Source: an uncultured Candidatus Saccharibacteria bacterium (GTDB taxonomy: Bacteria; Patescibacteriota; Minisyncoccia; Sungbacterales; HO2-52-23). Taken from it: DNA of 56,784 nt. Within the stretch, counting starts at the first letter, position 1; each line of letters starts with the position of its first letter. Shown piece after piece: positions 5,213-46,326 of this stretch. Under the pieces are notes generated by a model. That model saw only the letters and a list, made by a program, of their open reading frames with translations. It did no database searches and was not told where the DNA came from. Both the position numbers and the translations under genes were made by a program. The stretch is taken from NCBI GenBank assembly GCA_964358425.1, contig CAYHON010000002.1, positions 9,350 through 66,133 of the forward strand, given 5' to 3'.

Positions 5213-7669
5213 TTATGATGCCGGGGTATGCTTGGCCAATATTTCCTGCTCTACCTCCTCGCGCGGGCGGCCGTATTTGGTGCGGGAAATTTCTTTGACC
5301 ACCTCCGCTATTTCTTTGTCGCCCTTGCGGGGAGGATAGGTTTTCATGCTGAAAGGCGGAGAGGTCATGCCTCTGGCCAAAAGTTTAACATAACAATTAA
5401 AGTTGTCTATTTGCAGCAAGTCCTGCTCGTTGAAAACAGGCTTGAATTGCTTGGCCATAAATTCGGCGTCGTCGGTGCCGATGCGGAAAGATATGGTGGA
5501 GCCGACGTTGCCGAAGACCGCTTTTTTAATATCCTCTTTCAGCTGGCCGATGAATTGATGGGTGATAATGAGGTCCAGCCGGTATTTACGCGCTTCCGAC
5601 AAAATGGTCGCAATGGAGTTGGTGGTGACGTTTTGGAACTCGTCTATATACAGATAAAAATCTTTGCGCCTGCTTTCCTCCACATCTACCCGCGAGAGGG
5701 CCGACATCAAAAGCTTGCCGACAATAATAAGACCAATGAGCGAAGAATTCAGATCGCCGAGACGTCCTTTGGATAAATTGACCAGCAATATTTTTTGATT
5801 ATCCATCACCTCGCGGAAATTAAAGGCCGATTTTTCCTGGGCGATGATGGGGCGCATAATTTCGTTGGCAATAAAATTATCAAACTTGGAGGCGATGTAG
5901 GGAACCATATTTTGCAGGCTGGCTTCTCCGCCGGCTTTCTCGGCAATCTGGGTCCAGAAATTTTTGACGACGATATTGGTGGTGCGCGACAGCTTCAGGT
6001 CGCGGAAAGGCTTGTCGGTCAGCACCCTTTCAATTTCCAGAAAAGTATTGCCCGAAGACGGGTCATCCAGCACCAGCATCGTCGCGTTGCGGAAATACTG
6101 CTCAAACATCGGCCCTCCGGCGATGGACATATTGTATAGCTTGTCAAAAATACCCAGAAGCTCGTTGACGATGAAAGTTTTCTGCTCCGGATAATTTTGG
6201 TCGTACTCCAGCATATTGAGTCCCATGGGGCGCGAGGTGTCGCCCGGGTTGAAATAAATCACGTCCTGCACGCGCTCGCGCGGGATAAATTCCAGAATTT
6301 TTTCCACCAAGTCGCCGTGGGGGTCAATGACGCACAGGCCCTTGCCGTTTTCCACATCCTGCACAATGAGGTTTTGCAGAAAGGCGGATTTACCGGTGCC
6401 GGTCTGCCCGATGGTGTAGAGATGTCGCCGCCGGTCTTCATCCAGCTGGCGGATTTCCGATTTTTCTCCGCGGAAAGCGTTGTAGCCGAGAATCAAACCC
6501 TCTGTCGGCAAATTTACCGGGGGCGCTGCCTCGCGGGCTTTGAGCTTGCTGATTTTGGGCGTCTCCAGCGGTACGTTGGGGAAATGAAAAATAGAGGTCA
6601 GCTCTTCGGTATTTAAAATTACTAAGCGGCTTTCGTCAAAGTTGCGGAAAGAAAAATTAAAAAGAATTTTTTTGAGCGAGTTGCAGTCTTGTTTAGCAGT
6701 AGTAAAACTATTGGCGTTGGGATCGGCGAATTGCCCGAAAGCGGCTTCCAGCCCTCCGAGGATGGCTTGGGTCCTCTCTACGCTGGGGGCGGAGGCCACC
6801 AGACGGATATTGGTCTCAAACAGGGCTTTATTGGCCTTGCCGTCCAGAGCTTTGACCATTTCCTCCTGCGCGGGAGAAAGTTTTTTCATCTCCGGCGGTT
6901 TAGCGTCGGTAGAAGTCCCCGCCACTGAAACTACTGTCTGCAAAGTTTTTAAAATAATATCGTCATGGTTTTTTTTACCCTCAAAAATATTTTTAGCCGT
7001 TTTCTTTAACTTATTCTTCCATTTGCTTTTAGCCGGCCGCGCGATTATCTGCAGGCAGGCGCCCTCCCCTTCTTTGGCCAGCTTGGTAAAGACATTGGTC
7101 AGGGATTTAACCGGATCCCCTTCCAGTTTTTGGTAAGTGCGGATGGGAAAATATTGATTTTCTTTGAGGGCCGCGCTGGAGGCGGCGGCGACTCCGTCGG
7201 GATTAAAAATATTATAGTCCCGGCATATTTCCAGCTGGGCGTCCGGAAAGATTCCTTGGATTATTTTTTCCACCGAGAGCATCAGGCGCCGGGGAACGGC
7301 CACGTAGAAACTTATTTCTTCGCCCACAGATGGCACGGTCAGCTCTAGGGCGAAAGACGGCCGGCCGTAGAGGATGGTCTGCCACGGTCTGTCCTTGACC
7401 AATCCGAGCGAGGTATAGAATTGCTCCATTAGGGCAATTTTTTCCCGGATTTGCTGGAGATTCATTTCTTGGGTAGTCTGGGCTTGAGAAAAGCGGATGG
7501 CAAAAAGTCCTAGGCTCAAGGACCGGCTTATCAGCCCGCGGCGGATAAAAGTTTTTTTGATGATTACGACGGCGAGAAAACACCCCACCAGGAAAATAAT
7601 CCCTCCGGTGATGTAAGGACCCATCCCTTCGAATAAATCCCCAAAGGAGAAAAATCCGCTTTCTACCAT
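5213..7669 (-). CDS. Membrane-anchored VirD4/TraD/TraG-like coupling-type ATPase
   Basis: 818 aa with an N-terminal TM segment. Walker A is YTIGQTGTGKSAFL, followed by CVIDPHGDL, and Walker B is FYLYIDEFQN. The tail is ITHQFIGQL...GNVGSTISFRIG, typical of TraD/VirD4-type NTPases. The roughly 400-aa N-terminal domain is not recognised. Confidence 0.65.
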   Translation of the reverse strand: MVESGFFSFGDLFEGMGPYITGGIIFLVGCFLAVVIIKKTFIRRGLISRSLSLGLFAIRFSQAQTTQEMNLQQIREKIALMEQFYTSLGLVKDRPWQTILYGRPSFALELTVPSVGEEISFYVAVPRRLMLSVEKIIQGIFPDAQLEICRDYNIFNPDGVAAASSAALKENQYFPIRTYQKLEGDPVKSLTNVFTKLAKEGEGACLQIIARPAKSKWKNKLKKTAKNIFEGKKNHDDIILKTLQTVVSVAGTSTDAKPPEMKKLSPAQEEMVKALDGKANKALFETNIRLVASAPSVERTQAILGGLEAAFGQFADPNANSFTTAKQDCNSLKKILFNFSFRNFDESRLVILNTEELTSIFHFPNVPLETPKISKLKAREAAPPVNLPTEGLILGYNAFRGEKSEIRQLDEDRRRHLYTIGQTGTGKSAFLQNLIVQDVENGKGLCVIDPHGDLVEKILEFIPRERVQDVIYFNPGDTSRPMGLNMLEYDQNYPEQKTFIVNELLGIFDKLYNMSIAGGPMFEQYFRNATMLVLDDPSSGNTFLEIERVLTDKPFRDLKLSRTTNIVVKNFWTQIAEKAGGEASLQNMVPYIASKFDNFIANEIMRPIIAQEKSAFNFREVMDNQKILLVNLSKGRLGDLNSSLIGLIIVGKLLMSALSRVDVEESRRKDFYLYIDEFQNVTTNSIATILSEARKYRLDLIITHQFIGQLKEDIKKAVFGNVGSTISFRIGTDDAEFMAKQFKPVFNEQDLLQIDNFNCYVKLLARGMTSPPFSMKTYPPRKGDKEIAEVVKEISRTKYGRPREEVEQEILAKHTPAS

Positions 7670-7671
7670 AT

Positions 7672-8127
7672 TTATAATTTTTCTATTTTACGCAAAGCCA
7701 GCAATTTGTCGTAGAAATCATCCGTGAGGTGGTCGTGCAGCTCGTCCAGCAGATAGGGGCTAAACTCGCTGGCCGTCTTGACGGCGTCGCGGATGCTTTT
7801 AGTGAGAGCTATCTCCACCAGCTCCTTTACTTGTTCTCCCCGGATATCCTTTCTTTTGGCTTCGTCGGCCTGGACTTTGGTGTCGTCGGACAATACATGT
7901 GTTACGGCCGGAGCAGTACCTGTAGCCGGACTTTCAGTCGGTGGTAAAGCCGCCCTCTCTTCTTCAATATGTTTTTGCAGGACTTCCTTAAAAACCTCCT
8001 TTTCGGGGGGCAGGACTTCAGATTGCGAGCCTGCGGAAAGCTGCTGTTTCTTTTCTTGCAGTTTTCGCTCCAGCTCTTTTATTTCGTCCTCGGGGGAAAT
8101 GTTTAATCCTGTTGGCTTATCGGGCAT
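7672..8127 (-). CDS. Hypothetical protein (charged, coiled-coil-like), tightly coupled to the downstream ATPase
   Basis: 151-aa ORF. Its stop is 2 nt from the start of 5213..7669. I recognise no motif. Confidence 0.45.
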   Translation of the reverse strand: MPDKPTGLNISPEDEIKELERKLQEKKQQLSAGSQSEVLPPEKEVFKEVLQKHIEEERAALPPTESPATGTAPAVTHVLSDDTKVQADEAKRKDIRGEQVKELVEIALTKSIRDAVKTASEFSPYLLDELHDHLTDDFYDKLLALRKIEKL

Positions 8128-35702: not shown

Positions 35703-35936
35703 CTATAAACCTAAAGCCGTCTGGATGGCCGGCTGGTCAAAACCTACGATTATTTTGCCGTCGATTTCAATCACCGGCACGCCCATCTGGCCGGATTTTT
35801 TAATCATATCCGTGCGCGCTTCGGTATCGGTGACCACATTTTTTTCCTCGTACTCCACTTTATTTTTTTGGAAAAAATCTTTGGCGAGCTTGCAATAAAC
35901 ACAAGTGGGGGTCGTATAAATGGTTACTTTGGACAT
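35703..35936 (-). CDS. Glutaredoxin-like / NrdH-like small redoxin
   Basis: 77 aa with the CVYC active site and a GVPVIEIDG motif. Confidence 0.8.
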   Translation of the reverse strand: MSKVTIYTTPTCVYCKLAKDFFQKNKVEYEEKNVVTDTEARTDMIKKSGQMGVPVIEIDGKIIVGFDQPAIQTALGL

Positions 35937-35951
35937 TTTATTTCTCGGATA

Positions 35952-36716
35952 TTATTTTTTATATTTAAGAGCGTCTTCTATTATAGTTTGGAATCCTTTG
36001 GGTAGCCGCATGGCTTCGGCCTCGCTCTGTAGAAAAGGTACGGCGCCTACCAATCTTTCTCCGTTGACGAAGTTGGTCGGCGTGCCGTCTATTTCCAGGG
36101 TAGTCGCGTCGGCCATATCTTTGGCAATGATTTTTTTAATCTCCTCCGAATCCATATCTTTGACAAACTTGTCGTCGTTTAGTCCGATACTGCGCGCGTA
36201 AGACACGAAAGTGCTTTGCGGATTGGGCAGGCTGGACCATTCGACTTGGCGGACAAAAAGCAGGTTGTGCATCTCCCAGAATTTATCCTGGAGCCTCGCC
36301 GCTTCCGAGGCCTGCGCCGCGGGCAAGGCGTTGGGATGGATGCCGGTCAAGGGGAAATGACGGTACACGAACCTTACTCGCCCGGTTTTTACATATTTTT
36401 CTATGATATCTTTCTCGGCGGTTTGAAAAAATTTATCGCAATAGGGGCACTGAAAATCGCTGAATTCCACTATTGTCACCGGAGCATCGGGTTTGCCCAT
36501 GGAAGCGCTGTTAGCCGCCAGCTGTTCGCCGGTTAAGGTTAAGGCTTCAGCGGGGAGGGCTACCGCCGCGGGCTGTTTGGAAATACGCGGGCCGGTGGAA
36601 TAAATAACTGCTCCGGCTATCAAAACCCCCGCCAAGAGTATAGAGCCGGCTATTACATAAGGGGTCTCTTCTTTCTTATCCGACGCTGTTTTCGCGGTTT
36701 TTTGTTCTTCTTCCAT
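35952..36716 (-). CDS. DsbA-family thiol:disulfide oxidoreductase (membrane anchored)
   Basis: N-terminal TM segment, then FSDFQCPYCDKF (CPYC) in a thioredoxin fold. Confidence 0.8.
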   Translation of the reverse strand: MEEEQKTAKTASDKKEETPYVIAGSILLAGVLIAGAVIYSTGPRISKQPAAVALPAEALTLTGEQLAANSASMGKPDAPVTIVEFSDFQCPYCDKFFQTAEKDIIEKYVKTGRVRFVYRHFPLTGIHPNALPAAQASEAARLQDKFWEMHNLLFVRQVEWSSLPNPQSTFVSYARSIGLNDDKFVKDMDSEEIKKIIAKDMADATTLEIDGTPTNFVNGERLVGAVPFLQSEAEAMRLPKGFQTIIEDALKYKK

Positions 36717-36744
36717 TTTTAAGTTTTAGTTGATTGTAGGAGCT

Positions 36745-37974
36745 TTATTTTATCACCGGTATCTCGTTGATGTCAAAATCAAAAGTGGATAATTTTTGCC
36801 GGTAGGAGCCGATGTTTGTTTTGGTTTCTATAAGCTTGGCTATGGCGTTTTTATCTTTGAAACGGTTTATCAGAAAGGCTCCGGTGATGATGTCTCCTTT
36901 TAAAAATATCCTCTCGTATAGGTCTTTGTAATTATCATAACGCACTATGCTCTCCAAATTGTTTCGGCATTCGCCAAGACAGGTCAGATGGAATCCCAGA
37001 TTGGTAAGAGAATAAAAGGGCAGACTGCTGAAGGGCTCTTTTTGGCCCGCCATATTGAGCCCGACTCTTTTTCCCTGCAGGAAAGCGGTGGTCCAGTTGC
37101 CGCATAGATTGTATTGGCCGAGCGGGGGGTCGTAATACTCGGCGACGTCTCCGGCGGCATATACTTGCGGTTGGCTGGTTTCAAAGAATTCGTTGGTGCG
37201 TATACCTCTGTTTCCGACCTCCACCCCGCTATTTTTGAGAAAATCCATATTGCGCTCTATACCTATGCCCACGGCGATGGCGTCGCAGTTGATATTTGCG
37301 GTTTGATGGGTGGTTATGGCGAGGCCCTGATCCGAACTAAAGATAGAATCTACCCGGTCGTCGGAAATGACCTGTATTCCGTAGCGGGCCATATTTTTTT
37401 TCATCAGCTCGGTGCCTTGTTCTTCCAGCATCCCGCCGAAAAAATTTTCTTCTTTGGTAAGCAGGGTTGTCTCGGACTTGTTGACCGCCAAAATCTCCAA
37501 AAACTCCAGCGCGATAAAAGAGCCGCCCACCACCACAGCTTTTTTTATTTTCTCCAAATTATTAAATAGGCGGTCGGCATCGTCTATCGTCTGCAGGCGG
37601 TAGATAAAATTTTGTCCCTCGTCTTTTTCCCATTTCCGCACTTTTCCGCCGGAGGCGAGCAGCAATTTTTTGAATCCGATAAACTGGCCGGATGACAGCT
37701 CCACCTCGCGGCGGCTCATCTTTATGGAGACGGCCTCCATTTGCGGCAGGAAATCTATCTTTTTTTGGGCAAAATCATCCAGCCTTCTTAAAAATAGTTT
37801 ATCCCGGCTGACGCGCCTCTTTAGATAAGACGGCAAAAGCACCCGGGAATATAAAGGATATGGTTCGGAAGAAATTATGGCGACGGTTGATTCGGGATCT
37901 TTTTCCCGGATAGTTTCTGCGGCGGTGACGCCGGCTACTCCCCCGCCGATTATAAGATAGTCATAGTAAGACAT
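36745..37974 (-). CDS. FAD-dependent pyridine nucleotide-disulfide oxidoreductase
   Basis: Motifs IIGGGVAGVTAA, a second Rossmann fold VVGGSFIALE, and AAGDVAEY. Confidence 0.8.
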   Translation of the reverse strand: MSYYDYLIIGGGVAGVTAAETIREKDPESTVAIISSEPYPLYSRVLLPSYLKRRVSRDKLFLRRLDDFAQKKIDFLPQMEAVSIKMSRREVELSSGQFIGFKKLLLASGGKVRKWEKDEGQNFIYRLQTIDDADRLFNNLEKIKKAVVVGGSFIALEFLEILAVNKSETTLLTKEENFFGGMLEEQGTELMKKNMARYGIQVISDDRVDSIFSSDQGLAITTHQTANINCDAIAVGIGIERNMDFLKNSGVEVGNRGIRTNEFFETSQPQVYAAGDVAEYYDPPLGQYNLCGNWTTAFLQGKRVGLNMAGQKEPFSSLPFYSLTNLGFHLTCLGECRNNLESIVRYDNYKDLYERIFLKGDIITGAFLINRFKDKNAIAKLIETKTNIGSYRQKLSTFDFDINEIPVIK

Positions 37975-37975
37975 A

Positions 37976-38128
37976 CCCCGTATATCAACCTCGATAAGAG
38001 CATTTGTCTTATATCTGCCGCTATCTCAGTTGTAATAAAATCAATAATAAAATACTTAAATTAATCTCACAAATAAATATAATCAAATGCCCCTAGATGT
38101 GGCAGATAATCGAGGTTGTATTACGGGG
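37976..38128. repeat. About 150-bp element bounded by 20-bp inverted repeats (17/20 match) around an AT-rich core
   Basis: CCCCGTATATCAACCTCGAT (37976-95) pairs with ATCGAGGTTGTATTACGGGG (38109-28). A second tier is ATCTGCCGC/GTGGCAGAT. It exactly fills the spacer between rseP and the oxidoreductase. Confidence 0.8.
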
Positions 38129-38132
38129 CATA

Positions 38133-39200
38133 TCAGAAAATTCGGACTATATCCCGATAAGTCACCAAAACCATCAGAGCTATGAGCAAGGCGAAGCTTA
38201 TCAGGTGAGCTAAATTCTCCCATTCTACCTTGACCTTCTTTCCTCTGATTTTTTCAATTATTAAAAATAAAACCCGCCCGCCGTCAAGGGCGGGAATAGG
38301 CAAAAAATTAAGCACGGCCAGATTAACCGAAAGGATGCCGACGAATTGGGTCAGGTAGGCTAGGCCCAGCATCCGGGTGTCGTTGACGAGGAAAAATATG
38401 CCTACGGGTCCCGCCACGGCCGCCACCATCTTTCTTTCCATAACCAGATTTTTCAGAAGTTCGGCCAATCCCAGGATAGTAAGGAAAAGACTGTTGTAGA
38501 GCATTTTGAAACCCTCTATCGGCGCCTTGTACCAAGGCACTTGGCGGAGGGAAATCCTGGCCAAAGCGATGCCCAGCGACCCCTCGTTGGCCGCGATGTC
38601 TTTGCGGGGTGTAGCTTTTATTTCTTGGAGATTTTGACCGCGACGTATAACAAGAGTTATTTCTTCTCCGCGGTGGGTATCGGTGAAATTGCGCACGTCT
38701 TGCTCTGTGCTTATCGGCAGGGAGGTTTTAATATCTCGCATCTCCACAATCTTATCTCCAAATTTTAATCCGGCCTGCTCGGCTGGAGTGTTGGGCAGAA
38801 CTTCAATGATAGACACCGGCAGTACTTCCGTGGATTCATCCACGGCTTCCGGTATGCCGGCCATGCTCCCCGCGCTGAAAAGAACCCAGGCCAGCACCAA
38901 ATTCATAAAAACTCCGGCGGCAAGCACGACAAATCTTTGCCACGCCGGACGGGAGGCAAAACTGTCTTTGTTGTCTTCCCCCTCCCCATGCTCGCCGTAA
39001 ATTTTTACGTATCCTCCAAAAGGTAGCCAGTTTACGGAATAGCGGATGCCGTTTTTGACGCGAGACCAAAGTTTGGGCGGAAAACCAAAGCCGAACTCCT
39101 CTACCCGTATTTTTAAAAATCTGGCCGCGTAAAAATGCCCCAGCTCATGGGCGAGTACCAGAATACTGATAACGATGATTACTAATATGAATGTAAGCAT
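38133..39200 (-). CDS. rseP: RIP metalloprotease RseP (site-2 protease, M50)
   Basis: HELGHF zinc motif in TM1, a PDZ segment, and the C-terminal NLLPIPALDGG motif. Confidence 0.85.
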   Translation of the reverse strand: MLTFILVIIVISILVLAHELGHFYAARFLKIRVEEFGFGFPPKLWSRVKNGIRYSVNWLPFGGYVKIYGEHGEGEDNKDSFASRPAWQRFVVLAAGVFMNLVLAWVLFSAGSMAGIPEAVDESTEVLPVSIIEVLPNTPAEQAGLKFGDKIVEMRDIKTSLPISTEQDVRNFTDTHRGEEITLVIRRGQNLQEIKATPRKDIAANEGSLGIALARISLRQVPWYKAPIEGFKMLYNSLFLTILGLAELLKNLVMERKMVAAVAGPVGIFFLVNDTRMLGLAYLTQFVGILSVNLAVLNFLPIPALDGGRVLFLIIEKIRGKKVKVEWENLAHLISFALLIALMVLVTYRDIVRIF

Positions 39201-39223
39201 TTATATTATTTCTTGAGTAAAGA

Positions 39224-39487
39224 TTATTTATAAATCTCGTGAGTGCCGATGTTTATAAAACCGACATCTTTTTTGTTCACCATAAATTTAAACATAATTC
39301 GATATTGACCGATAATTGTAAAGGATAAATAATCTCTATATTTGCCGTGAAGTTTATGAGTTTCTAATTTCGAATCAAACGGATTATTCAAAAACAAGCT
39401 TTCCTTTTCCAAGAAAGCCTGTTGCACGAATCTCGGCATCTTTTTCAACGATTTCCCGAACTTGGAAGAGTAAAAAACCCGCCGCAT
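39224..39487 (-). CDS. RelE/ParE-superfamily type II toxin (probable)
   Basis: 87 aa. The pattern F..L..NPFD..L..HKLHGKYRDYLSFTI.GQYRIMF fits RelE/YoeB-like mRNA interferases. It is preceded by a small partner ORF. Confidence 0.6.
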   Translation of the reverse strand: MRRVFYSSKFGKSLKKMPRFVQQAFLEKESLFLNNPFDSKLETHKLHGKYRDYLSFTIIGQYRIMFKFMVNKKDVGFINIGTHEIYK

Positions 39488-39501
39488 AATCTTGCACCGA
39501 T

Positions 39502-39729
39502 TTATTTTGATTTTCTAGCTGTGCCGAGTATTTCAGAAAAAGTGGAAGCTTTCTTTAGTTTCTTGTTCTGATATTCCTTTTCAAAAACATGGATGGTTTC
39601 ATCAGTATCTTTTTCTTCACGCAAAAGCCGTTTCTTCAATCCGGTTATCTCATCATATTCAGCGCGGGGAATTATTATAAGCTCACCCTTTTGAGCTAAT
39701 TTTTTGGGTATAGTGAGGATATTGACCAT
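39502..39729 (-). CDS. Putative antitoxin partner
   Basis: About 75 aa starting MVNILTIPKKLAQKGELIIIPRAEYDE (SpoVT/AbrB-like beta start). It lies 14 nt upstream of the toxin. The tracked ORF is extended to 39765. Confidence 0.4.
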   Translation of the reverse strand: MVNILTIPKKLAQKGELIIIPRAEYDEITGLKKRLLREEKDTDETIHVFEKEYQNKKLKKASTFSEILGTARKSK

Positions 39730-39757
39730 AAATAGGATTATAACAGATTTTATTTGT

Positions 39758-41550
39758 TTATACAATCTCGCTATTGTAACAGCTTTCGCAGTATATTATC
39801 TCCTTTCTCTCGGGACTGTAAGAGGTCTCAAACTCGTTGGGACAGGATTGGTCGCTGTGAAAATGAGTAGTTTGGTTTTGATAAATTATTATTGATTCTT
39901 GATTCTGACTTCTGGATTCTTTCCCATTGCACATACATCTCCTCTTCCAGAGCTTCAGGGGATTCCTCTGCTTCAATCGTGAATAATGCCTACAGTTGGG
40001 ACAGAGTCTGGGTAAGGGCAGGTTCATCTTACGGTAGAACTCCAGCTCTTGAGGGATGATACGAAAAGCCGAGGTACATTGTTCGTTACAAGTACCTTGG
40101 TGGCTACAGCCTATGTTTTGGGTAAGAATAGAGTCATCTACGTCTTTGATATGGTCGGGGAGGGATTCGGGGGTCAGGTTTATGGTGTATTCTCTCTTTT
40201 CATCTTCTTTCCAAGTGTAGCCTTGAGCTATGGCTTCCTCCTTAGTCAGAGGGAAGTATTCTTGAGCTATGGTCTCATTGTAGGAGAAGGGAGAGAGTTC
40301 AGGAGGAAAGAACTCTCCATACCTGTATATCCTTCCTTTAGAGTCGGTGTAGGGCATAGAGTTCATATGCTCTATGATCTGGGATATCAGCTTCTCATAG
40401 TCTTCTTTGGAGTATTGGCGGTTGAGGATACAATAGGACTTATTGCGGAGGCCCACACAACCAAATAGATTGTTGGAGTTGTGGCAGTTGAAGGAGTATT
40501 CAACGTCGTGGCTTCTGTAAACAACTATGGTGAATTTTACTCTTGAACCGGATATACCCGAATCTACCGATTCATAAAGCAAATCCACTCCTCCACCAAC
40601 CCCATAGCCATCATAGGAGTCTTTCATACCCATACCCCCCCAGACGGCGTATTTAGAATCCTCTACCCCCACCACATCAAAACACTGATAACAATTTTTA
40701 GTATTGCCAACTATATCCCCCACTACATCCACGATTTTAAAAGAATACATATATTTTCTAGGGAAGTTTAGTATCGTCTGCCCATATGTTTCTTTTAATT
40801 CCGTTAGTTTTTTATAACTTCCCAGATCAAAATTTTTGATGGCTTTTTTATAATCTTCTTTGGAGTAAGGTTTATTAAAAATATAATAAGATTTATTTCT
40901 TAAGCCCGTACAACCGAAACAGTCCGAACAGTTTCGGCAGTCAAACAAAAAAGCCGAGTTACTACAGTCCTCGCAGCCAAAAGAAAATAAAATTTTATAT
41001 GATGTTCCAGAATTGACCGTCTCATAAGATAAGTCCAAGTGGTCAACTAAATATAAATCAGCCGAATCTTTGGAAGAAGCTACTCGGTTGGAATAAAGTA
41101 TGTTTTCACTTCGCCAAGCCGCAGAAATCAAAAAAAGAATTCTTGCTATCTTCGGCGTGGTTGGCGTAATCAGAGTTTACGGCGTTGGTGTTGAACAGGG
41201 CTATGGCTGGAGTATTTTTTAATAGTTCCCCGAACTGGATAAAAAATAATTTTTGGGGCTCATACTTCAAACCAAATTGAATCGGGTCCCATTGATCCGA
41301 CCACCAATATTTTTGGTCATATATCTTAGCATCTGCCCCGGGGTGATAGATAGAAATAACATCTTCCTGATGACCAGGAGCTCGGCATTTATTTTTTATA
41401 TAAAACTCGTTCATTGCGCCAGGCCATTCTTCTAACCATCCGACACTCCGGACACCACGTCGGCGGAGGGACTTTTATTTTGGAATAGAATTGCAGATCA
41501 TCATCAGTGACCTCAAATGAGTTTTTGCAGTTTTGGCACTCTTTGTTCAT
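39758..41550 (-). pseudogene. Cys-rich zinc-ribbon repeat protein gene split in three by two +1 frameshifts at homopolymers
   Basis: The pieces are 41389..41550 (MNKECQNCK...), 41106..about 41395 and 39758..about 41125. They read as one protein if one base is removed from A6 (coding strand, + strand 41392-97) and from T7 (+ strand 41130-36). The module FY.K...P.P..CP.CR occurs at both ends. The internal duplicate is C.NC.DCFGC.GLRNKSY.I.N..YSKEDY. Confidence 0.6.
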
Positions 41551-41559
41551 ATCTTCTCG

Positions 41560-41594
41560 CCCTCCCAAATTTTGCGTAGCAAAACTTGGGAGGG
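41560..41594 (-). promoter_or_regulatory. 16-bp hairpin sequestering the Shine-Dalgarno of the Cys-rich gene
   Basis: The mRNA reads CCCUCCCAAGUUUUGC-uac-GCAAAAUUUGGGAGGG, then 9 nt, then AUG (41550). The GGGAGGG SD is base-paired with a perfect anti-SD CCCUCCC. Confidence 0.6.
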
Positions 41595-41695
41595 TAAATA
41601 AAACAAAAAATCCTCGGGTTCTATTACAAACTCGTTTTGGCAATTCTGGCAGATTTTAGTTTCCGTATTCATTCTTAATTCTTGATTCTTGCTTC

Positions 41696-42493
41696 TTAAT
41701 TCTTTGGAGACATATGTATCAAATATTCTTTATTCCCCTTATCCCCGCGGATGGGCGACTCCATAGTATTTTTTATTTTCCAGCCGTTTGACTCGGCCCA
41801 CTTTTTAAAACCTTCCAGCAGATTTTCCCGGTCCTGATCGGTTTTTATAATTCCGTGATGCAAGAGGCTTTGGTCCCGGGTCTGATACTGGGGTTTGAAA
41901 AGGGCCACTACTTCTCCTTTGGGAGACAAGAATCTACGCACGGCCGGCAGGATGTTTTCCAAAGGAATCAAGGATACGTCAATCGTAACAAGGTCTACTT
42001 CTTCGGGCAACTTGCCCCCACACCATAACGGAGATCGCGTTTCGCGTGAATTCTTATTTATCTCCGTTTGGTGTGGGGGTGAATCCAAACTGCGCACATC
42101 GGTGTCCTCCATCACCACCACTTTGGGATTTTCCCTGATTTTAGGCGCCATTTTTCCGCGGGCCGTATCTATGGCGTATACTTTCTCGGCTTCGTGCAAA
42201 AGCAAAATTTCCGTAAAACCGCCGGTAGCCGAGCCAATATCGGCGCAAATTTTCCCGGTCGGATTTATTTCAAAATTTTTCAGCGCCGCTTCCAATTTCA
42301 AGGCTCCTCGGCCGACGTATTTGAACCGTCCGCGGAACTCTATTTTATCTTTTTCGCCTACCATTTGCGCCGGCGAGATGGCTTTATGGCCATTTAGAAA
42401 AACAGCGCCTTCGGTGACTTTCACGAAAGCGTCTGGTTTGTCTCGGACAAGTTTTTGCTCTATGAGAAACTCGTCTAACCGGCGTTTTTTCAT
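41696..42493 (-). CDS. tlyA: TlyA-family rRNA 2'-O-methyltransferase
   Basis: S4 domain (RLDEFLIEQKLV), FtsJ-like motif I DIGSATGGFTE, and VSLI. Confidence 0.85.
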   Translation of the reverse strand: MKKRRLDEFLIEQKLVRDKPDAFVKVTEGAVFLNGHKAISPAQMVGEKDKIEFRGRFKYVGRGALKLEAALKNFEINPTGKICADIGSATGGFTEILLLHEAEKVYAIDTARGKMAPKIRENPKVVVMEDTDVRSLDSPPHQTEINKNSRETRSPLWCGGKLPEEVDLVTIDVSLIPLENILPAVRRFLSPKGEVVALFKPQYQTRDQSLLHHGIIKTDQDRENLLEGFKKWAESNGWKIKNTMESPIRGDKGNKEYLIHMSPKN

Positions 42494-43029
42494 ACCGTCA
42501 TTATTTCTTTCTCTTTGGCGCGATGTATCTCTTCCAGTTTTTTGTTGGCTTCATCCACTTGTTTTTGGACGTCGTTTTTTTGGCGAAATTTTTCGTCTTC
42601 GGATATTTCTTTGGATTTTTCCCGGCGGTCGGTCTCGCGCAGGGAATCCTCCCGGTCTTTTCTGATGCAGATGCGCGCCTCCTCCAAAAATTTGCCTAAG
42701 GTCTTGACCAAGTCTTTGCGGCGCTCCTCGTTTAAGGACGGGATGGCAAGGCGGATGGAATCTTTATCAACCACAGGGTTCATCCCCAGGGAGGAGGCCT
42801 GTATCGCTTTTTCAATCGGCTGGAGGGCGTTTTTATCCCAGGGTTTGATGAGTAACTGGCGTGGCTCGGGGCAGGATAAAGCCGCCAAAGCCTTTAGCGG
42901 AGTTTTGGAGCCGTAATAATCCACCTCTAAATCCTCCACCAAAGCCGGAGTGGCGCGCCCTGTACGTAAAGACGATATTTCATTTTTGAAATATTCCAGA
43001 GTTTTTTCAAGTTTTTCTTTTAGGTTCAT
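42490..43029 (-). CDS. frr: Ribosome recycling factor
   Basis: 179 aa with RTGRATPALVEDLEVDYYG. It is preceded by AAGGAGGAG. Confidence 0.9.
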   Translation of the reverse strand: MNLKEKLEKTLEYFKNEISSLRTGRATPALVEDLEVDYYGSKTPLKALAALSCPEPRQLLIKPWDKNALQPIEKAIQASSLGMNPVVDKDSIRLAIPSLNEERRKDLVKTLGKFLEEARICIRKDREDSLRETDRREKSKEISEDEKFRQKNDVQKQVDEANKKLEEIHRAKEKEIMTV

Positions 43030-43106
43030 TGTTCTCTCTCCTCCTTTGTGCTAAGCGGGGCAAAGTTTAAATATTTAAAAATATCAGGATATCGACGAGC
43101 GGCTAT

Positions 43107-44279
43107 TTATTGAAACACCGCCAGCATCAGATCCGGTTTCAGCGGATTTATATAAATTGTTTTTATTTTCCGCGAGGACGGCAGGCTGATTATTTTCCAA
43201 TGTATGCCCTGGTCCGCGCTTTTATAAAGCTGGTATCCGGCGCCAACAAAAAGATTGTCCGAATTTTTAGGGTTTAAAACCACCGTACTCAAATCCGAGG
43301 TATCGGGCGGAAGAGGTATCTGCAGGTTTTGCCAGGAGCCTCCCCCATTAAAAGAACGGGCTATCAGATTGGGGAAGCCAACGTATAAAAGTCCGGGGGC
43401 AAGTGGCGACATAGCCAGCGATTCTATATTTCTTCGGAAACTAAAAGGCGAGCCTTTAAGAGTAAAAAGATCTTTGGAGCCGGTTTGCTGGTAGGTGGCT
43501 TGCAAGTCGGCTGCTATTTGAGTGCTTATGTCCGTCCAATTTTCTCCGGTGTCCAGTGTTTTGAGAATTAAAAAAGAGGAGGTCACCAGATACATCTCGC
43601 TTTCGGCCCGCGGATTTACTAAAAGACGAATCAACGACTCACCAAACCATTTCTTGACTCGCCAAGTTTTGCCCCCGTTTACGGTTTCCAAAAATCCTCC
43701 CTGGCCGGTGGTTACGTACACGGTGTCGGCGTTGTATCCGGAGGCGTAGAGATCAAATATGCCGTATCCTTTAGTATTGACGAAATATATTTCGGTAAAA
43801 CTGTCTCCGCCGTCGCTGCTTCTCAAAACTCTTCCCCGGCTGTCCTGATAGACCGCGAGGTAAATAACTTTCGTATTTTGCCGGCTGATAGAAATTTTAT
43901 AAACATCGCTGGCGGGTTTCAACGTACCGGTTTTGTCGGTAACCCTCTGCCAGGTATCTCCGGAGTTGCTGCTTTTCCAAAGACCGGAGGACTTGGTTCC
44001 CAGATATACCGTATTCGGGTTCGTGGGGTGGAAATAAACATTAAGGATTTTGGTGGGGACTTTTTCTCTTTTGTTTTCGGGAGTGTCGGCTTTAGCCCAG
44101 CTTTCTCCGCTATCGCGGGAAATAAGCAGGCCTCCGCTGCCCAGAGCTCCCCGATCCGGTGTCTGACTGGCGCCCGGGAGCCCCAGACCAACAAAATAAA
44201 GCACTCCGGGGATTATGACAAAAAGCGCCAGGACGATGACGAGGATTACCAGAAACAGTCTTTTGGAAAAAGTAGGCAT
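43107..44279 (-). CDS. BNR/Asp-box repeat beta-propeller protein (membrane-anchored or secreted)
   Basis: N-terminal TM segment followed by about seven S/D-x-G-x-x-W boxes: DSGESW, NSGDTW, DGGDSF, NGGKTW, DTGENW, NGGGSW and DQGIHW. Confidence 0.7.
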   Translation of the reverse strand: MPTFSKRLFLVILVIVLALFVIIPGVLYFVGLGLPGASQTPDRGALGSGGLLISRDSGESWAKADTPENKREKVPTKILNVYFHPTNPNTVYLGTKSSGLWKSSNSGDTWQRVTDKTGTLKPASDVYKISISRQNTKVIYLAVYQDSRGRVLRSSDGGDSFTEIYFVNTKGYGIFDLYASGYNADTVYVTTGQGGFLETVNGGKTWRVKKWFGESLIRLLVNPRAESEMYLVTSSFLILKTLDTGENWTDISTQIAADLQATYQQTGSKDLFTLKGSPFSFRRNIESLAMSPLAPGLLYVGFPNLIARSFNGGGSWQNLQIPLPPDTSDLSTVVLNPKNSDNLFVGAGYQLYKSADQGIHWKIISLPSSRKIKTIYINPLKPDLMLAVFQ

Positions 44280-44285
44280 TGTTTA

Positions 44286-45245
44286 TTATTTTATAGTTTC
44301 CAGCAGCAGGGCATCCAAGGCGAGCCGGCTGTTGACGTTGGTTGTCTCCAACAAAGAAAAGATACGGTCTGTTTTTTTTATTTTTTCCGTCAAAATGCGC
44401 GTCTCTTTTTCTTTTCTTTCGAAGGCGAATTTTTTTAGGGAAGATCTTAAAGCCTGAAACGCCAGCTCGGCTATCCGCGCCGTCAATTCCGCATCTTGGC
44501 CGGTCTCCTCTGTCAGCATAAAAAGATGGGATAGGTCTCTCTGGCGAAAGACGAGATCAATTTCTTTGATCAATTTTTCCTCTTGGGCCAGCTGTCCACT
44601 GTCTTCCATAAACTTTCTAGCCCGGCCCGGCCGGCCATACGCGCAGAAAATTATTTTATCCAGCGCATCGGCGGCGAGACCTTCTTTTTTTAACCCGTCG
44701 CGCAGTTCCAAGTCGGCTACGGGATAAAAACCTACGGGTTGAGAGCGCGAAAGAATAGTCGGCAACACGGCCTCGCGATTCTCCGCAATCAGAATAAAAA
44801 GGGCGTTTTCTCCCGGCTCCTCCAATAGCTTCAAAAAAGCATTGGCCGCCTCTGTACTCATTTTATCAGCTTGATTTATTATGGCAATCCTCCACTGAGC
44901 CGACGGGGCGGCTATGGAAAACCGGCGTCTCAACTCCCGGATGTCGTCTATGGGAATATCGCTTCTTTCGTCTTTCTTGGAGACCAGGGTATGCTCCAGA
45001 TCCAGGACCGCGACCCGCGGATGGAGATTGGATTCTATGGCGCGGCAATCATGGCATTCACGGCAGGCGTCGCCCAGAGATTTAGGTTTCTGCGGACAGC
45101 AAAGAGTTTGGGCTAAGATTTTAGCCAAAGTAAACTTGCCCACTCCTTCCGCTCCGTAGAAAAAATAAGCATGGGCAAGTTTGTCTTTTTGCAGGACCTT
45201 ATTAAAATATTCAACCTGGCGAGCGTGGCCGATTATCCTTGACAT
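44286..45245 (-). CDS. holB: DNA polymerase III subunit delta'
   Basis: AAA+-like motif AHAYFFYGAEGVGKFT, a Zn-module-like CCPQKPKSLGDACRECHDC, and SRSQ. Confidence 0.8.
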   Translation of the reverse strand: MSRIIGHARQVEYFNKVLQKDKLAHAYFFYGAEGVGKFTLAKILAQTLCCPQKPKSLGDACRECHDCRAIESNLHPRVAVLDLEHTLVSKKDERSDIPIDDIRELRRRFSIAAPSAQWRIAIINQADKMSTEAANAFLKLLEEPGENALFILIAENREAVLPTILSRSQPVGFYPVADLELRDGLKKEGLAADALDKIIFCAYGRPGRARKFMEDSGQLAQEEKLIKEIDLVFRQRDLSHLFMLTEETGQDAELTARIAELAFQALRSSLKKFAFERKEKETRILTEKIKKTDRIFSLLETTNVNSRLALDALLLETIK

Positions 45246-45315
45246 TTTATATATAATAATACTATTTATTCAGTTTTGAAACACCTTGTCACTTAAATAT
45301 ATTACAACAAAAACC

Positions 45316-46326
45316 CTACCTCTTCGACAAGATACTCCTCTTGTACACATCCAAATGTTCCAACGCGATGCCGGTGCCTTTGGCCACGCACAAAAGCGGT
45401 TCCTCGGCGATGTGCGCCTGCACCCCTATTTCCTGATAAATAAGTTTATCGATATTGCGCAAGAGCGCTCCCCCGCCGGTGACCACGATGCCTTTATTCA
45501 TAATGTCCGCGGCCAGCTCCGGCGGAGTGTCATGCAGAACTGATTTCATCGCCCGGATTATTTCATCCAGCTCGTCGGCGATAGCCACGGTGATTTCCGG
45601 AGAATTTATCTCCACTGTTTTGGGCAGGCCGGTCATCAGGTCGCGCCCTTTTATTTCTATTTTCAGACCATCATCGTCCATCTGCACGGCCGAGCCGATT
45701 TTTATTTTTATGTCCTCGGCGGTGCGGTCGCCGATGGCGAGATTGTAACTTCTTTTTATATAATCCGAGATAGCCTGATCCAGCCGGTTGCCGGCCACCT
45801 TTACGGAAGTGGAGGTCACAATACCACCGAGCGAAATTACGGCAATATCCGCCGTACCTCCGCCGATATCTATGACCATGTGTCCGGCCGGCTCATTGAT
45901 GGGAATGCCTGCGCCGATGGCCGAGAGTACCGGCTCCTTTACCACATAGGCGGCCCGGGCTCCGGCCTGCACCGTGGCCTCTATCACGGCCCGGCGCTCG
46001 GTGGAGGTGACTCCGGCCGGGACCGAGACCATAACATCGGGTTTGAAAAGCCGGACTCTGCCCCCCGCTTTGTTTATAAAATACCGGAGCATAGCTTCGG
46101 TCACGCGGTAGTCGGCAATAACTCCGTCGCGCAAAGGACGGTAGGCCACGATAGTATCGGGCGTACGGCCGATCATATCTCGGGCGGCGCTTCCGACGGC
46201 CAGCACTTTGTTGTCGTCACGGGACACCGCGACCACCGAAGGCTCGTTTATAACCACTCCTCTTTTGGGAACAAAAACCAGCGTGTTGGCGGTTCCGAGA
46301 TCTATACCTATTTTTCTTGTAAACAT
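45316..46326 (-). CDS. mreB: Actin-like MreB (copy 2)
   Basis: Motifs KIGIDLGTANTLVF, EPVLSAIG and IDIGGGTADIAVISLGGIV. It is a second full-length paralog in the window. Confidence 0.9.
   Translation of the reverse strand: MFTRKIGIDLGTANTLVFVPKRGVVINEPSVVAVSRDDNKVLAVGSAARDMIGRTPDTIVAYRPLRDGVIADYRVTEAMLRYFINKAGGRVRLFKPDVMVSVPAGVTSTERRAVIEATVQAGARAAYVVKEPVLSAIGAGIPINEPAGHMVIDIGGGTADIAVISLGGIVTSTSVKVAGNRLDQAISDYIKRSYNLAIGDRTAEDIKIKIGSAVQMDDDGLKIEIKGRDLMTGLPKTVEINSPEITVAIADELDEIIRAMKSVLHDTPPELAADIMNKGIVVTGGGALLRNIDKLIYQEIGVQAHIAEEPLLCVAKGTGIALEHLDVYKRSILSKR

What the first reader, a model, noticed from the sequence alone, without database searches (positions are those of the whole stretch)
39758..41594. 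Cys-rich zinc-ribbon repeat gene broken only at two homopolymer tracts and preceded by an SD-sequestering hairpin
The three consecutive ORFs (41389..41550, 41106..41414 and 39758..41131) read as one protein of roughly 600 aa. Each junction lies in a homopolymer (A6 and T7 on the coding strand). Each needs the same +1 correction, meaning one base too many.

The restored junctions make sense. The first reads ...WRNERVLYKK-KCRAPGHQEDVISIY. The second reads ...DSKNSFF-ISAAWRSENILYS.

The protein has the module FY.K...P.P..CP.CR..R....RN at both termini. It has two internal copies of C.NC.DCFGC.GLRNKSY.I.N..YSKEDY, and its function is unknown to me.

Its GGGAGGG SD is locked in a 16-bp hairpin with a perfect CCCUCCC anti-SD. 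Two slippery tracts plus a translational lock would suit phase-variable or tightly repressed expression. Homopolymer sequencing error or simple decay are equally possible. The locus is AT-rich and sits next to a RelE-like toxin-antitoxin pair.
Basis: partly seen in the sequence, partly recalled or inferred. Interest (0 to 1): 0.6.

Follow-up and report, generated by a model that had tools for sequence, protein, structure and literature searches.

The report
Decaying zinc-finger paralog with palindrome leader
One copy of a very common but unstudied zinc-finger gene of tiny groundwater bacteria (Patescibacteria) is caught in the act of decaying, and the "regulatory hairpin" in front of it is a copy of a small palindromic insertion element that also sits, in frame, inside essential genes of many related bacteria.

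Summary
Window 41550..39758 (- strand) is one ~596-aa gene split into three ORFs by single extra bases at an A6 and a T7 run. A 16-bp hairpin holding GGGAGGG lies 10 nt before its ATG. The gene belongs to a large unnamed Patescibacteria family (>7,400 hits, intact members about 590-610 aa).

The breaks are probably not assembly errors. Three assemblies of the same aquifer population carry A6. Two carry T7 and one carries T6, which is the only indel in 9.7 kb. No assembly has an intact frame. The T run arose from a lineage-specific Tyr-to-Phe change. Three of four population SNPs in the gene are non-synonymous, one hitting a conserved Cys. I read this as recent stepwise decay of a redundant paralog, not evolved phase variation.

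The hairpin is not gene-specific. It is a 42-nt palindromic element with about 10 copies in this genome. About 22 of 41 copies elsewhere lie in frame inside genes such as S8, UvrB, LepA and RpoC, much like Rickettsia palindromic elements. Here it lies inside a 41-codon upstream ORF made from a duplicated N-terminal stub. That ORF's TGA overlaps the gene's ATG (ATGA), and this leader recurs in other genomes.

The parts
41671..41704 (-). Heptad tandem array (AAGAATN, 4.9 copies) that fills the spacer after the FtsJ/TlyA-like gene. Its last unit contains the ATG of the upstream ORF.
   Evidence: Tandem Repeats Finder. The pattern search found 3 matches against 0 expected.
41547..41672 (-). Upstream ORF of 41 codons: MNTETKICQNCQNEFVIEPEDFLFY + LPSQVLLRKIWEGE + KI + TGA.
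   Evidence: ORF list. The same architecture is found in L056/L087, L077 and L090.
41598..41672 (-). N-terminal stub. These are codons 1-25 of a canonical family N-terminus (first CxxC knuckle plus F.IEPEDF.FY), duplicated upstream of the gene.
   Evidence: It matches residues 1-28 of P0002. Stubs aligned across loci keep the peptide despite many synonymous differences.
41556..41597 (.). 42-nt palindromic insertion element: TTA + CCCTCCCAAGTTTTG-CTACG-CAAAATTTGGGAGGG + CGAG. The core is at 41560-41594. Its 3' arm carries the GGGAGGG Shine-Dalgarno-like sequence.
   Evidence: Folding. There are 33 loci in GTDB species genomes and about 10 copies in this genome against 0 in shuffles. About 22 of 41 distinct copies lie in frame inside long ORFs. 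The top-of-stem pair covaries as GC/CG/AU/UA/GU.
41547..41550 (-). ATGA overlap: the stop codon of the upstream ORF overlaps the start codon of the main gene.
   Evidence: Sequence. The same overlap occurs in all four intact stub-bearing loci, although their spacers are 9, 9, 12 and 15 nt.
41389..41550 (-). Gene piece 1 (53 aa): the complete N-terminal zinc-ribbon/treble-clef module. It is ended prematurely by TAA.
   Evidence: ORF list. Weak Zn_ribbon_8 and zf_Tbcl hits. It matches residues 5-58 of P0002.
41392..41397 (-). Lesion 1: an A6 run with one base too many. It is identical in all three assemblies that cover it.
41106..41414 (-). Gene piece 2 (102-aa ORF), equivalent to residues about 54-143 of the family.
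41130..41136 (-). Lesion 2: a T7 run with one base too many. It is polymorphic: T6, with an intact junction, in ENA contig L100.
   Evidence: One search shows the only indel in 9,722 aligned bases. Protein P0123 (551 aa) reads ..DSKNSFLISAAW...
39758..41131 (-). Gene piece 3 (457 aa): the two Cys-rich repeat regions and the C-terminal zinc-ribbon module.
   Evidence: 67% identity over its whole length to the intact 593-aa P0002, and more than 7,400 family hits.
39888..39921 (-). Heptad array (4.9 copies) inside the 3' part of the gene. It encodes the lineage-specific insert ..KESRSQNQES...
   Evidence: Tandem Repeats Finder, compared with the homolog sequences.

Best explanation
The locus is one paralog of a very large, uncharacterised Patescibacteria protein family. 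Members are about 595 aa, with a zinc ribbon at each end and two Cys-rich repeat regions between. This paralog has recently been inactivated and is decaying step by step.

Order of events:
- A one-base insertion in the A run after codon 52 came first. It is present in every assembly of this aquifer population.
- A T6-to-T7 slippage about 90 codons downstream came second and is still polymorphic.
- Amino-acid-changing SNPs are accumulating.
- The genome keeps one intact paralog and a third that spans a contig gap, so the loss is tolerable.

The hairpin is a 42-nt palindromic insertion element, similar in behaviour to Rickettsia palindromic elements (RPEs). It sits inside a 5' leader cassette made of four parts:
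- a stub of 25 N-terminal codons;
- the palindrome;
- an ATGA stop/start overlap;
- a replacement N-terminus.

This cassette occurs on several unrelated members of the family and seems to move between them by recombination.

Inferred mechanism of the leader: ribosomes translating the upstream ORF melt the hairpin, terminate on the ATGA, and so permit initiation of the main gene. The hairpin otherwise hides the only Shine-Dalgarno (SD) sequence.

Shown: the gene's identity, the lesions, the polymorphism, the dispersed in-frame nature of the palindrome, and the recurrence of the leader.

Inferred: that the gene is non-functional, the order of events, the coupling mechanism, and the recombinational spread.
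For: Family membership:
- More than 7,400 hits, with the best intact ones at 58-67% identity and 590-610 aa.
- The in-silico-corrected protein deviates at 7 of 173 columns that are at least 90% conserved. That equals the median of 75 intact members, so the damage is recent.

The lesions are real:
- L001 (ERZ1292638) is 99.93% identical over 2,929 bp with no gaps.
- L100 (ERZ1292640) matches over 9,722 bp with 19 SNPs and one indel, which is the T tract.
- L109 is identical but does not reach the tracts.

Signs of decay:
- No assembly has an open full-length frame.
- The next-closest database protein is only 67% identical.
- The population SNPs in the gene are Cys-to-Tyr at a conserved Cys, Ser-to-Phe, Val-to-Gly and one synonymous change.
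- The T run owes its existence to a Y-to-F change; Tyr is present in 71 of 75 homologs.
- Paralogs in the same genome: C5:5771-7570 is intact at 605 aa, and a third spans the C4/C31 contig gap.
- Broken, truncated or chimeric copies are common in relatives.

The palindrome:
- 33 loci in Patescibacteria species genomes.
- About 10 copies in this genome, including compensated arm variants such as CCCGCCT...AGGCGGG.
- In frame inside S8, UvrB and LepA, confirmed by Pfam.
- In frame inside RpoC, LysS, GatB, a P-type ATPase, ComEC and RtcA, as judged by reading the translations.

The leader:
- The stub-palindrome-ATGA-gene arrangement is found in L056/L087, L077 (twice, in tandem) and L090. Decayed versions occur in G017.
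- Genes carrying the leader do not form a clade in a tree of the gene body, but all share the same short D(L/M)xFY N-terminus.
Against: - Apart from the two indels the gene looks fully constrained, so a functional state rescued by slippage or recoding is not excluded.
- All assemblies come from one aquifer, so calling the A6 lesion fixed applies only locally.
- The SNP counts are tiny (3 non-synonymous to 1 synonymous).
- The stub peptide is conserved across loci. That could mean the stub is functional rather than a relic.
- The coupling model has no expression data behind it. In two of the four intact loci the hairpin carries an A.C mismatch on the mRNA strand, which suggests selection on the DNA palindrome rather than on an RNA structure.
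Confidence: 0.62

Rival explanations
1. Phase-variable (contingency) gene. Slipped-strand mispairing at the A and T runs switches expression on and off, and the hairpin adds a translational lock.
For: - The T tract differs in length between assemblies of one population, and it is the only indel in 9.7 kb.
- Both lesions are single-base gains in homopolymers.
- The rest of the gene is as well conserved as intact members.
- The family is multi-copy and variable in number between genomes.
Against: - No ON allele was seen in three assemblies, and A6 is invariant.
- Two independent OFF lesions need two reversions.
- Tracts of 6-7 nt are short for efficient switching.
- The tracts are absent from homologs. 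The T run is created by a lineage-specific Y-to-F change.
- Non-synonymous SNPs, including a conserved Cys, segregate in the gene.
Confidence: 0.1
2. The gene is still functional. Either it is a split gene (a free 53-aa zinc ribbon plus a 551-aa body in the T6 allele), or it is rescued by a +1 ribosomal slip at AAA-AAA-TAA-A or by transcriptional slippage.
For: - The break after residue 53 falls just after the N-terminal zinc-ribbon module (AF2 model).
- An ATG at 41414 opens the 551-aa frame in L100.
- AAA followed by a stop codon is a shift-prone context. This rests on general knowledge of +1 frameshift sites, not on a test here.
- The +1 reading gives LYKKKC, close to the consensus LYKRKC.
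- The remaining sequence is not degraded.
Against: - No homolog is split or shifted there. The 552-556-aa database entries are start-codon mis-calls on intact genes.
- There is no SD-like stimulator upstream of the site and no good ribosome-binding site before the internal ATG.
- A6 is too short for efficient transcriptional slippage.
- The T7 allele of the window needs a second rescue.
Confidence: 0.12
3. Assembly or sequencing artefact. The real gene is intact (A5/T6) and ordinary.
For: - Both breaks lie in homopolymers.
- Coverage of the public contigs is low, at 4-6x.
- One assembly does show T6.
Against: - A6 is reproduced in three assemblies with different SNP content, and T7 in two.
- There are no other indels in 9.7 kb, although the region contains many comparable runs.
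- The contig names are SPAdes-style, which suggests short-read data where runs of 6-7 nt are not systematically miscalled. This last point is an inference.
Confidence: 0.05
4. The hairpin is a dedicated, gene-specific SD-sequestering riboregulator rather than a passenger palindromic element.
For: - It is a stable stem that buries GGGAGGG, and an outer stem also pairs the AUG.
- It is retained upstream of at least 7 family genes in several genomes.
- The stem-top pairs covary.
Against: - Most copies are nowhere near this family, and many are translated inside housekeeping genes.
- The distance from SD to ATG varies from 10 to 16 nt among leader loci.
- The orientation of the G.U / A.C position is mixed relative to the mRNA.
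- The stem is part of an ORF whose translation would open it.
Confidence: 0.15

Closest known systems
Rickettsia palindromic elements (RPEs) and intragenic MITEs (review PMC10969869)
   Same: - It is a short palindromic repeat present in several copies per genome.
- It is inserted in frame into unrelated housekeeping genes, so that it is translated as a short conserved peptide: PSQILxxKTWEGE, PPKFxxxKLGRV or LP(S/N)FxxQNLGG, depending on frame.
- It is also found in intergenic spacers.
   Different: - It is 42 nt, against about 100-150 bp for RPEs.
- No sequence similarity to RPEs is expected, and none was tested.
- The hosts are Patescibacteria, not Rickettsia.
- Copy number is low (about 10 in this genome).
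- The arms are nearly invariant across distant lineages.
- No transposase or target duplication was identified.
Translational coupling through 4-nt ATGA overlaps and ribosome-melted SD hairpins (classic examples are the phage MS2 coat/replicase genes and the rpmI-rplT pair; from general knowledge)
   Same: - The upstream ORF ends on the start codon of the next gene.
- The downstream SD and AUG are base-paired in a stable stem that an elongating ribosome would open.
   Different: - The upstream ORF here is a 25-codon duplicate of the gene's own N-terminus fused to a mobile palindrome.
- Coupling is inferred only from conserved frame and overlap, with no expression data.
Homopolymer-tract phase variation (contingency loci of Neisseria, Haemophilus, Campylobacter and Helicobacter; from general knowledge)
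   Same: - The frame is lost by one-base changes in mononucleotide runs.
- One run differs in length between samples of one population.
   Different: - The runs are short (6-7 nt) and lineage-specific.
- Two independent OFF lesions are present.
- No ON allele was seen.
- The tracts are not conserved in the family.
Unnamed Patescibacteria zinc-finger repeat family, whose only Pfam handle is PF13451 zf_Tbcl on the terminal modules. It was noted before in this scan (e1-1032079, e1-4378167).
   Same: - The whole-length alignment, both terminal modules and both internal CFGC.GLRNK modules match.
- It is multi-copy, and paralog 3 of this genome is flanked by TrwB/VirD4-like ATPases.
   Different: - This copy is frameshifted twice.
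- It carries the stub-palindrome leader.
- No coupling ATPase lies beside it.

Membership tests
Patescibacteria ~595-aa Cys-rich zinc-ribbon family (unnamed) | Whole-length homology to intact members | tested here: met
   The 457-aa piece scores E = 6e-225 at 67% identity and 100% coverage to P0002. The other two pieces match residues 5-58 and 54-143.
Patescibacteria ~595-aa Cys-rich zinc-ribbon family (unnamed) | Conserved residues, including the Cys ligands of both terminal ribbons and the internal modules | tested here: met
   After in-silico correction, only 7 of 173 columns that are at least 90% conserved deviate. That is the median of intact members, and no Cys is lost.
Patescibacteria ~595-aa Cys-rich zinc-ribbon family (unnamed) | Single open reading frame of about 590-610 codons | tested here: not met
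   There are three ORFs in the window and L001, and two in L100.
Homopolymer phase-variable (contingency) gene | Tract length varies within a population | tested here: inconclusive
   The T tract is T6 against T7 between assemblies. The A tract is invariant in three assemblies.
Homopolymer phase-variable (contingency) gene | An in-frame ON allele exists | tested here: not met
   None of the three assemblies is in frame. No protein in the 5.8-billion-sequence collection is more than 67% identical and intact.
Homopolymer phase-variable (contingency) gene | The tract is a conserved, unusually long feature of the gene or family | tested here: not met
   The tracts are 6-7 nt. The T run is created by a Y-to-F change, with Tyr present in 71 of 75 homologs.
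Programmed +1 ribosomal frameshift (prfB-type) | The shift site is conserved in orthologs | tested here: not met
   All 75 aligned homologs are in frame at both sites.
Programmed +1 ribosomal frameshift (prfB-type) | A slippery codon followed by an in-frame stop, plus an upstream SD-like stimulator | tested here: inconclusive
   Site 1 has AAA-AAA-TAA, but no SD-like motif lies upstream. Site 2 has no stop at the shift point.
SD-sequestering translational hairpin | A stable stem contains the SD at a working distance from the start codon | tested here: met
   The stem is 16 bp at -26.6 kcal/mol, and GGAGG lies 10 nt from the ATG in the window. The distance is 10-16 nt in sister loci.
SD-sequestering translational hairpin | The element is specific to the regulated gene | tested here: not met
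   Of 33 genomic loci, only about 5 lie next to the family. Many copies are inside other ORFs.
RPE-like intragenic palindromic element | A repeated palindrome with several copies per genome | tested here: met
   10 copies in G000 against 0 in shuffles, and up to 3 exact copies in other genomes.
RPE-like intragenic palindromic element | In-frame insertion into unrelated conserved protein genes | tested here: met
   23 of 41 distinct copies have at least 30 open codons on both sides, though one of these looks like an antisense artefact. S8, UvrB and LepA give full-length Pfam matches, and S8 is 141 aa against a 126-position profile.
RPE-like intragenic palindromic element | Sequence homology to the ten described RPE families, with Rickettsia as host | not tested
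   RPE sequences were not compared. The size and the host both differ, so this is a functional analogy, not membership.
Translational coupling via upstream ORF | Stop/start overlap kept in homologous loci | tested here: met
   ATGA is present in the window, L056, L077 and L090, with spacers of 9, 15, 12 and 9 nt, all in frame.
Translational coupling via upstream ORF | Downstream translation depends on upstream translation | not testable with these tools
   This needs reporter fusions or ribosome profiling.

The most novel reading that the evidence does not exclude
The 42-nt CCCTCCCAA..TTGGGAGGG palindrome would be an undescribed RPE-like element of Patescibacteria. It is tolerated in frame inside essential genes (S8, RpoC, UvrB, LepA, LysS) and kept almost letter-perfect across distant lineages.

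In the zinc-finger family it would have been built into a mobile 5' cassette consisting of the old N-terminus as an upstream ORF, the palindrome, an ATGA overlap and a replacement N-terminus. This cassette would hop between paralogs by recombination and make their translation depend on upstream-ORF translation.
Probability: 0.35. Interest if true: 0.7.

Novelty: new member of a known kind. Interest (0 to 1): 0.45.

Why it matters
The broken gene itself is ordinary. It is a snapshot of birth-and-death turnover in a multi-copy family, with the second lesion still segregating in a natural groundwater population.

What matters more is what the hairpin led to.

- **A new example of in-frame selfish DNA.** Patescibacteria have some of the smallest and most streamlined genomes known. 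They nevertheless carry a short palindromic element that lands in frame inside core genes, including those for ribosomal protein S8 and the RNA polymerase beta' subunit. Its arms are conserved across distant lineages. That parallels the Rickettsia RPE story in a very different reduced-genome group. It also raises the question of whether the conserved stem has a role in DNA or RNA.

- **A leader that annotation pipelines miss.** The same element is part of a recurring leader in front of members of one of the largest unstudied protein families of these bacteria. These leaders matter for annotation: pipelines call the pieces inconsistently, for example a 41-aa ORF, 102/457-aa fragments or a 396-aa truncation. 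They also offer a simple, testable case of translational coupling.

Tried and rejected
- **Genome-wide homopolymer test.** I checked whether editing each homopolymer by one base merges two long ORFs. It gave 506 candidates, dominated by ordinary gene junctions, so it says nothing about assembly quality and I dropped it.
- **Function by homology.** Pfam, NCBIfam and PADLOC gave no family for the gene body. A profile search against PDB sequences found nothing.
- **Function by structure.** The AF2 model of P0002 (pLDDT 81) had no Foldseek match in the PDB with E < 7. Function remains unknown.
- **Rfam.** The only hits on the hairpin were spurious microRNA matches below threshold.
- **Intrinsic terminator.** There is no U run after the stem on either strand.
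- **Recurrent natural split after the zinc ribbon.** The 552-556-aa database members are mis-called starts of intact genes.
- **Apparent splits in relatives.** Two of them are only scaffold N-gaps.
- **Translational bypassing** from the stub's TAT to the gene's TAT, in the manner of T4 gene 60. I rejected it for three reasons:
  - The gap would be 113-119 nt.
  - The bypassed segment is itself a conserved coding N-terminus with its own ATG.
  - In L070 the landing frame would be wrong.
- **A phage vector for the palindrome.** There were no matches in the viral contig collection.
- **Leader inherited vertically in one subfamily.** The body tree requires at least 3 changes and shows no clustering beyond shuffles.
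Full report
**1. What is in the sequence**

On the - strand, three overlapping ORFs lie in different frames: 41550..41389, 41414..41106 and 41131..39758. The junctions lie at an A6 run (41392-41397) and a T7 run (41130-41136). Deleting one base at each gives a 596-aa protein. The terminal FY.K...P.P..CP.CR..R....RN modules and the two internal C.N...FGC.GLRNKSY.I.N..YSKEDY modules are present as described.

The hairpin core (41560-41594) has 16 pairs, one of them G.U, and a 3-nt loop. With short flanks it folds at -26.6 kcal/mol. The 161-nt region has z = -5.5 against shuffles, and an outer stem also pairs the AUG. GGAGG ends 10 nt before the ATG. GC content is 0.33-0.44 across 39.2-41.6 kb, against 0.45-0.52 around it.

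**2. What the gene is**

Nearly all are 590-610 aa, from Patescibacteria, and unnamed. The best intact hit, P0002, is 67% identical over the whole piece.

- Pfam, NCBIfam and PADLOC have no model for the family. Only the terminal modules touch PF13451 zf_Tbcl and Zn_ribbon_8.
- An AlphaFold2 model of P0002 built on 75 homologs reaches pLDDT 81. The ends are confident, and the Cys-rich repeat regions score 65-70 and are largely coil. It has no Foldseek match in the PDB and no sequence match to solved structures.
- Within the window's taxonomic family, 17 of 24 genomes carry the gene family, with 1 to about 14 matches each, often in tandem. None of 16 genomes sampled from sister families of the order had a match.
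- This genome has one intact paralog (C5:5771-7570, 605 aa) and a third that spans the contig ends of C4 and C31. The third is flanked by two TrwB/VirD4-like ATPase genes.
- P0002 also sits beside such an ATPase. This agrees with earlier notes of this scan (e1-1032079, e1-4378167).
- Function remains unknown. My best guess, at low confidence, is a cytoplasmic zinc-dependent binding partner or substrate of those orphan coupling ATPases.

**3. Are the frameshifts real?**

| Assembly | Overlap with window | Differences | A run | T run |
|---|---|---|---|---|
| L001 (ERZ1292638, 2.9 kb, 6x) | 42064..39136 | 2 SNPs, no gap | A6 | T7 |
| L100 (ERZ1292640, Hainich well H43, 9.7 kb, 4x) | 45451..35729 | 19 SNPs, 1 indel | A6 | T6 |
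| L109 (ERZ1292635) | 40980..37997 | identical | not covered | not covered |

- The single indel in L100 is the T tract. Its gene caller therefore produced a 551-aa protein (P0123) reading ..DSKNSFLISAAW...
- A6 is thus reproduced three times. The T tract is genuinely variable, or wrong in one low-coverage consensus.
- No assembly has the full frame open.
- No intact protein closer than 67% identity exists in the 5.8-billion-sequence collection.

**4. Decay or switch?**

Evidence for recent damage: the corrected protein deviates from columns that are at least 90% conserved at 7 of 173 positions. That is exactly the median of 75 intact members.

Evidence against an evolved switch:
- The tracts are 6-7 nt long.
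- Homologs do not have them. The T run exists only because a 95%-conserved Tyr codon became Phe (TAT to TTT).
- The upstream lesion is the same in all three assemblies, so toggling the T tract cannot restore the protein.
- Two OFF lesions need two reversions.
- The four SNPs that segregate in the gene are TGC-to-TAC (a conserved Cys of the DCRNC module to Tyr), Ser-to-Phe, Val-to-Gly and one synonymous change.

Copies with frameshifts, large deletions or chimeric structure are also common in relatives (G010, G003 and G017). Two apparent splits there are only N-gaps.

The simplest history is this: the A-run insertion came first, the T6-to-T7 slippage came second and is still polymorphic, and point mutations are now accumulating. 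In short, this is a redundant paralog being lost.

I cannot exclude two alternatives. The T6 allele could work as a split gene. A +1 slip at AAA-AAA-TAA-A would give LYKKKC, close to the consensus LYKRKC, and could yield some full-length product. No homolog shows either arrangement, and the 552-556-aa database entries proved to be mis-called starts.

**5. The hairpin is a palindromic insertion element**

- *First clue.* A relative, G017 (labelled Sungiibacteriota), has the same stem, letter for letter, in front of a family gene whose protein is only about 50% identical. It has a second copy with a compensated stem-top pair in front of another paralog.
- *Distribution.* A scan of one genome per prokaryotic species found the core CCCTCCCAARTTTT-N-AAAAYTTGGGAGGG in 33 loci. 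All are Patescibacteria or unclassified MAGs, and they include records labelled Nealson-, Wolfe-, Portnoy-, Sungii- and Saccharibacteria. Only about five of the loci lie next to the family. None was found in viral contigs.
- *Coding context.* Of 41 distinct copies, including metagenome hits, 23 lie in a reading frame that stays open for at least 30 codons on both sides, and often for hundreds. One of the 23 looks like an antisense artefact.
- *Host genes.* Pfam gives full-length matches for ribosomal protein S8 (three diverged lineages, 141 aa against a 126-position profile), UvrB and LepA. UvrB carries the insert at the same site in two genomes. By reading the translations, further hosts are LysS, RpoC, GatB, a P-type ATPase, ComEC and RtcA.
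- *Encoded peptides.* All three frames are used, giving PSQILxxKTWEGE, PPKFxxxKLGRV or LP(S/N)FxxQNLGG.
- *Copies in this genome.* Relaxing the arms finds 10 copies, against 0 in shuffles. They include compensated variants (CCCGCCTAA...TTAGGCGGG), and some lie inside ORFs.
- *Covariation.* In the positions that my search pattern left free, the stem-top pair covaries as GC 18, CG 4, AU 3, UA 2 and GU 3, with 2 unpaired, out of 32.

This is the behaviour described for Rickettsia palindromic elements (review PMC10969869). The differences are a 42-nt unit, a different phylum and a low copy number. I found no paper describing it in the library searched.

**6.

Immediately upstream of the hairpin lies a 25-codon copy of the canonical family N-terminus, MNTETKICQNCQNEFVIEPEDFLFY. 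It reads on through the palindrome (LPSQVLLRKIWEGE), then through KI, and stops at a TGA that overlaps the gene's ATG.

The same architecture of stub, palindrome, ATGA overlap and gene occurs elsewhere:
- L056/L087, from the same aquifer but a different organism;
- L077, twice in a tandem array;
- L090.

The spacers in the four intact loci, counting the window, are 9, 9, 12 and 15 nt, and all preserve the frame and the overlap.

G017 holds decayed versions: a stop in the loop together with a damaged gene N-terminus; a copy with no stub; and a copy with a truncated left arm.

All genes behind such a leader share a short, atypical N-terminus, MxxxCQNC...D(L/M)xFY. The stubs keep the canonical EPEDFxFY.

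In a maximum-likelihood tree of the gene body (residues 60-400), leader-bearing genes are scattered. Well-supported branches force at least 3 changes, and the clustering is no better than in shuffles. The window's gene groups with leaderless P0002, P0003, P0004 and P0005 at 100/98 support.

So the unit of palindrome plus spacer plus replacement N-terminus behaves as a 5' cassette. It has been copied between divergent paralogs, presumably by recombination using the homologous N-terminal codons on the left and the conserved VPPPTWCPEC codons on the right. Each stub would then be the recipient's displaced original N-terminus. That would explain why the stubs look conserved without necessarily being functional. 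This fits the junction gene conversion noted earlier in this scan (e1-2091921).

Two further stubs without hairpins lie upstream of the other two paralogs of this genome. I cannot explain them.

**7. How the leader probably works (inference)**

- The hairpin buries the only good SD sequence.
- A ribosome translating the upstream ORF must unwind it, and it terminates on the ATGA.
- This is the classic geometry for coupled initiation.
- The distance from SD to ATG drifts from 10 to 16 nt among loci, while the overlap is kept. This suggests that coupling matters more than free SD-dependent initiation.

Two cautions apply. In two of the four intact loci the variable stem position is A.C on the mRNA strand, so selection may act on the DNA palindrome. 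The palindrome may also be a mere passenger.

**8. Verdict**

The best reading, however, is a recently inactivated paralog whose hairpin is a dispersed, RPE-like palindromic element embedded in a recombining upstream-ORF leader. The gene break itself is ordinary. The element and the leader are the parts worth following up.

Noticed in passing
G000:C4:42959-43048 and G000:C5:11992-12060 (same genome, outside the window): Two more 25-30-codon N-terminal stubs of the family, without hairpins, lie upstream of the other two paralogs. They read MNPETRQCQSCKADFTIEPDDFLFYEKIKV.. and MYNPEIKQCQNCKSEFTIEPEDFLF*. One is separated from its paralog by a cytidylyltransferase-like gene. The other is separated by about 4.4 kb that includes recO and a RelE-like toxin. 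All three stubs of this genome share the unusual DFLF motif. Their origin is unexplained.
   Followed up: partly
window 41671-41704 and 39888-39921: Two heptad tandem arrays (AAGAATN, about 5 copies each). One ends exactly on the ATG of the upstream ORF. The other lies in frame inside the 3' part of the gene, where it adds ..KESRSQNQES... Both resemble the heptad hairpin repeats reported for the ribosomal-protein operon of this window (e1-3306097).
   Followed up: partly
L073, L081, L083, L086 (metagenome contigs): Ribosomal protein S8 genes of three diverged lineages carry the identical 42-nt palindrome in frame, encoding KY-LPSQILPSKTWEGE-N. The flanking codons differ between the lineages, so the element's nucleotides appear to be held constant.
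   Followed up: partly
L038 and L039 (uvrB of two different Patescibacteria): The palindrome sits at the same site of UvrB (..DYFL-[F/Y]PPKFS..K.GR.-RD[Y/F]L..DESH) in two distantly labelled genomes, with different loops. This is either an old insertion that has been kept, or a preferred target site.
   Followed up: no
G000:C1:28995-29029, C21:7016-7050, C23:5968-6002, C25:278-312: Copies of the palindrome family in this genome that lie inside open reading frames. The C21 copy is in a PilN-like ORF that has no Pfam hit. Some copies have compensated arm variants, CCCGCCTAA...TTAGGCGGG.
   Followed up: partly
G000:C4:41602-42540 and G000:C31:5239-5655: TrwB/VirD4-like (PF10412) ATPase genes flank the third paralog of the family. 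This repeats the family-ATPase linkage seen in L024 and in earlier notes of this scan.
   Followed up: partly
window 39224-39765 and G000:C5:~7600-7800: RelE/YafQ-like toxin genes, with sub-threshold family hits only, lie next to two of the three paralogs. The one in the window has a 75-87-aa antitoxin-like partner.
   Followed up: no
window 35745-35820 against L100 9631-9706: Twelve of the 19 SNPs between the window and the H43 contig L100 are packed into the last 90 bases of that contig. This could be a recombined strain segment or a contig-end artefact.
   Followed up: no
L068 (Patescibacteria AH-259-L07) and L077: These are tandem arrays of 3-4 family genes. In L068 the palindrome lies 14 nt after the stop of one copy and about 130 nt before the next. 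In L077 every unit is preceded by the stub-palindrome leader.
   Followed up: partly
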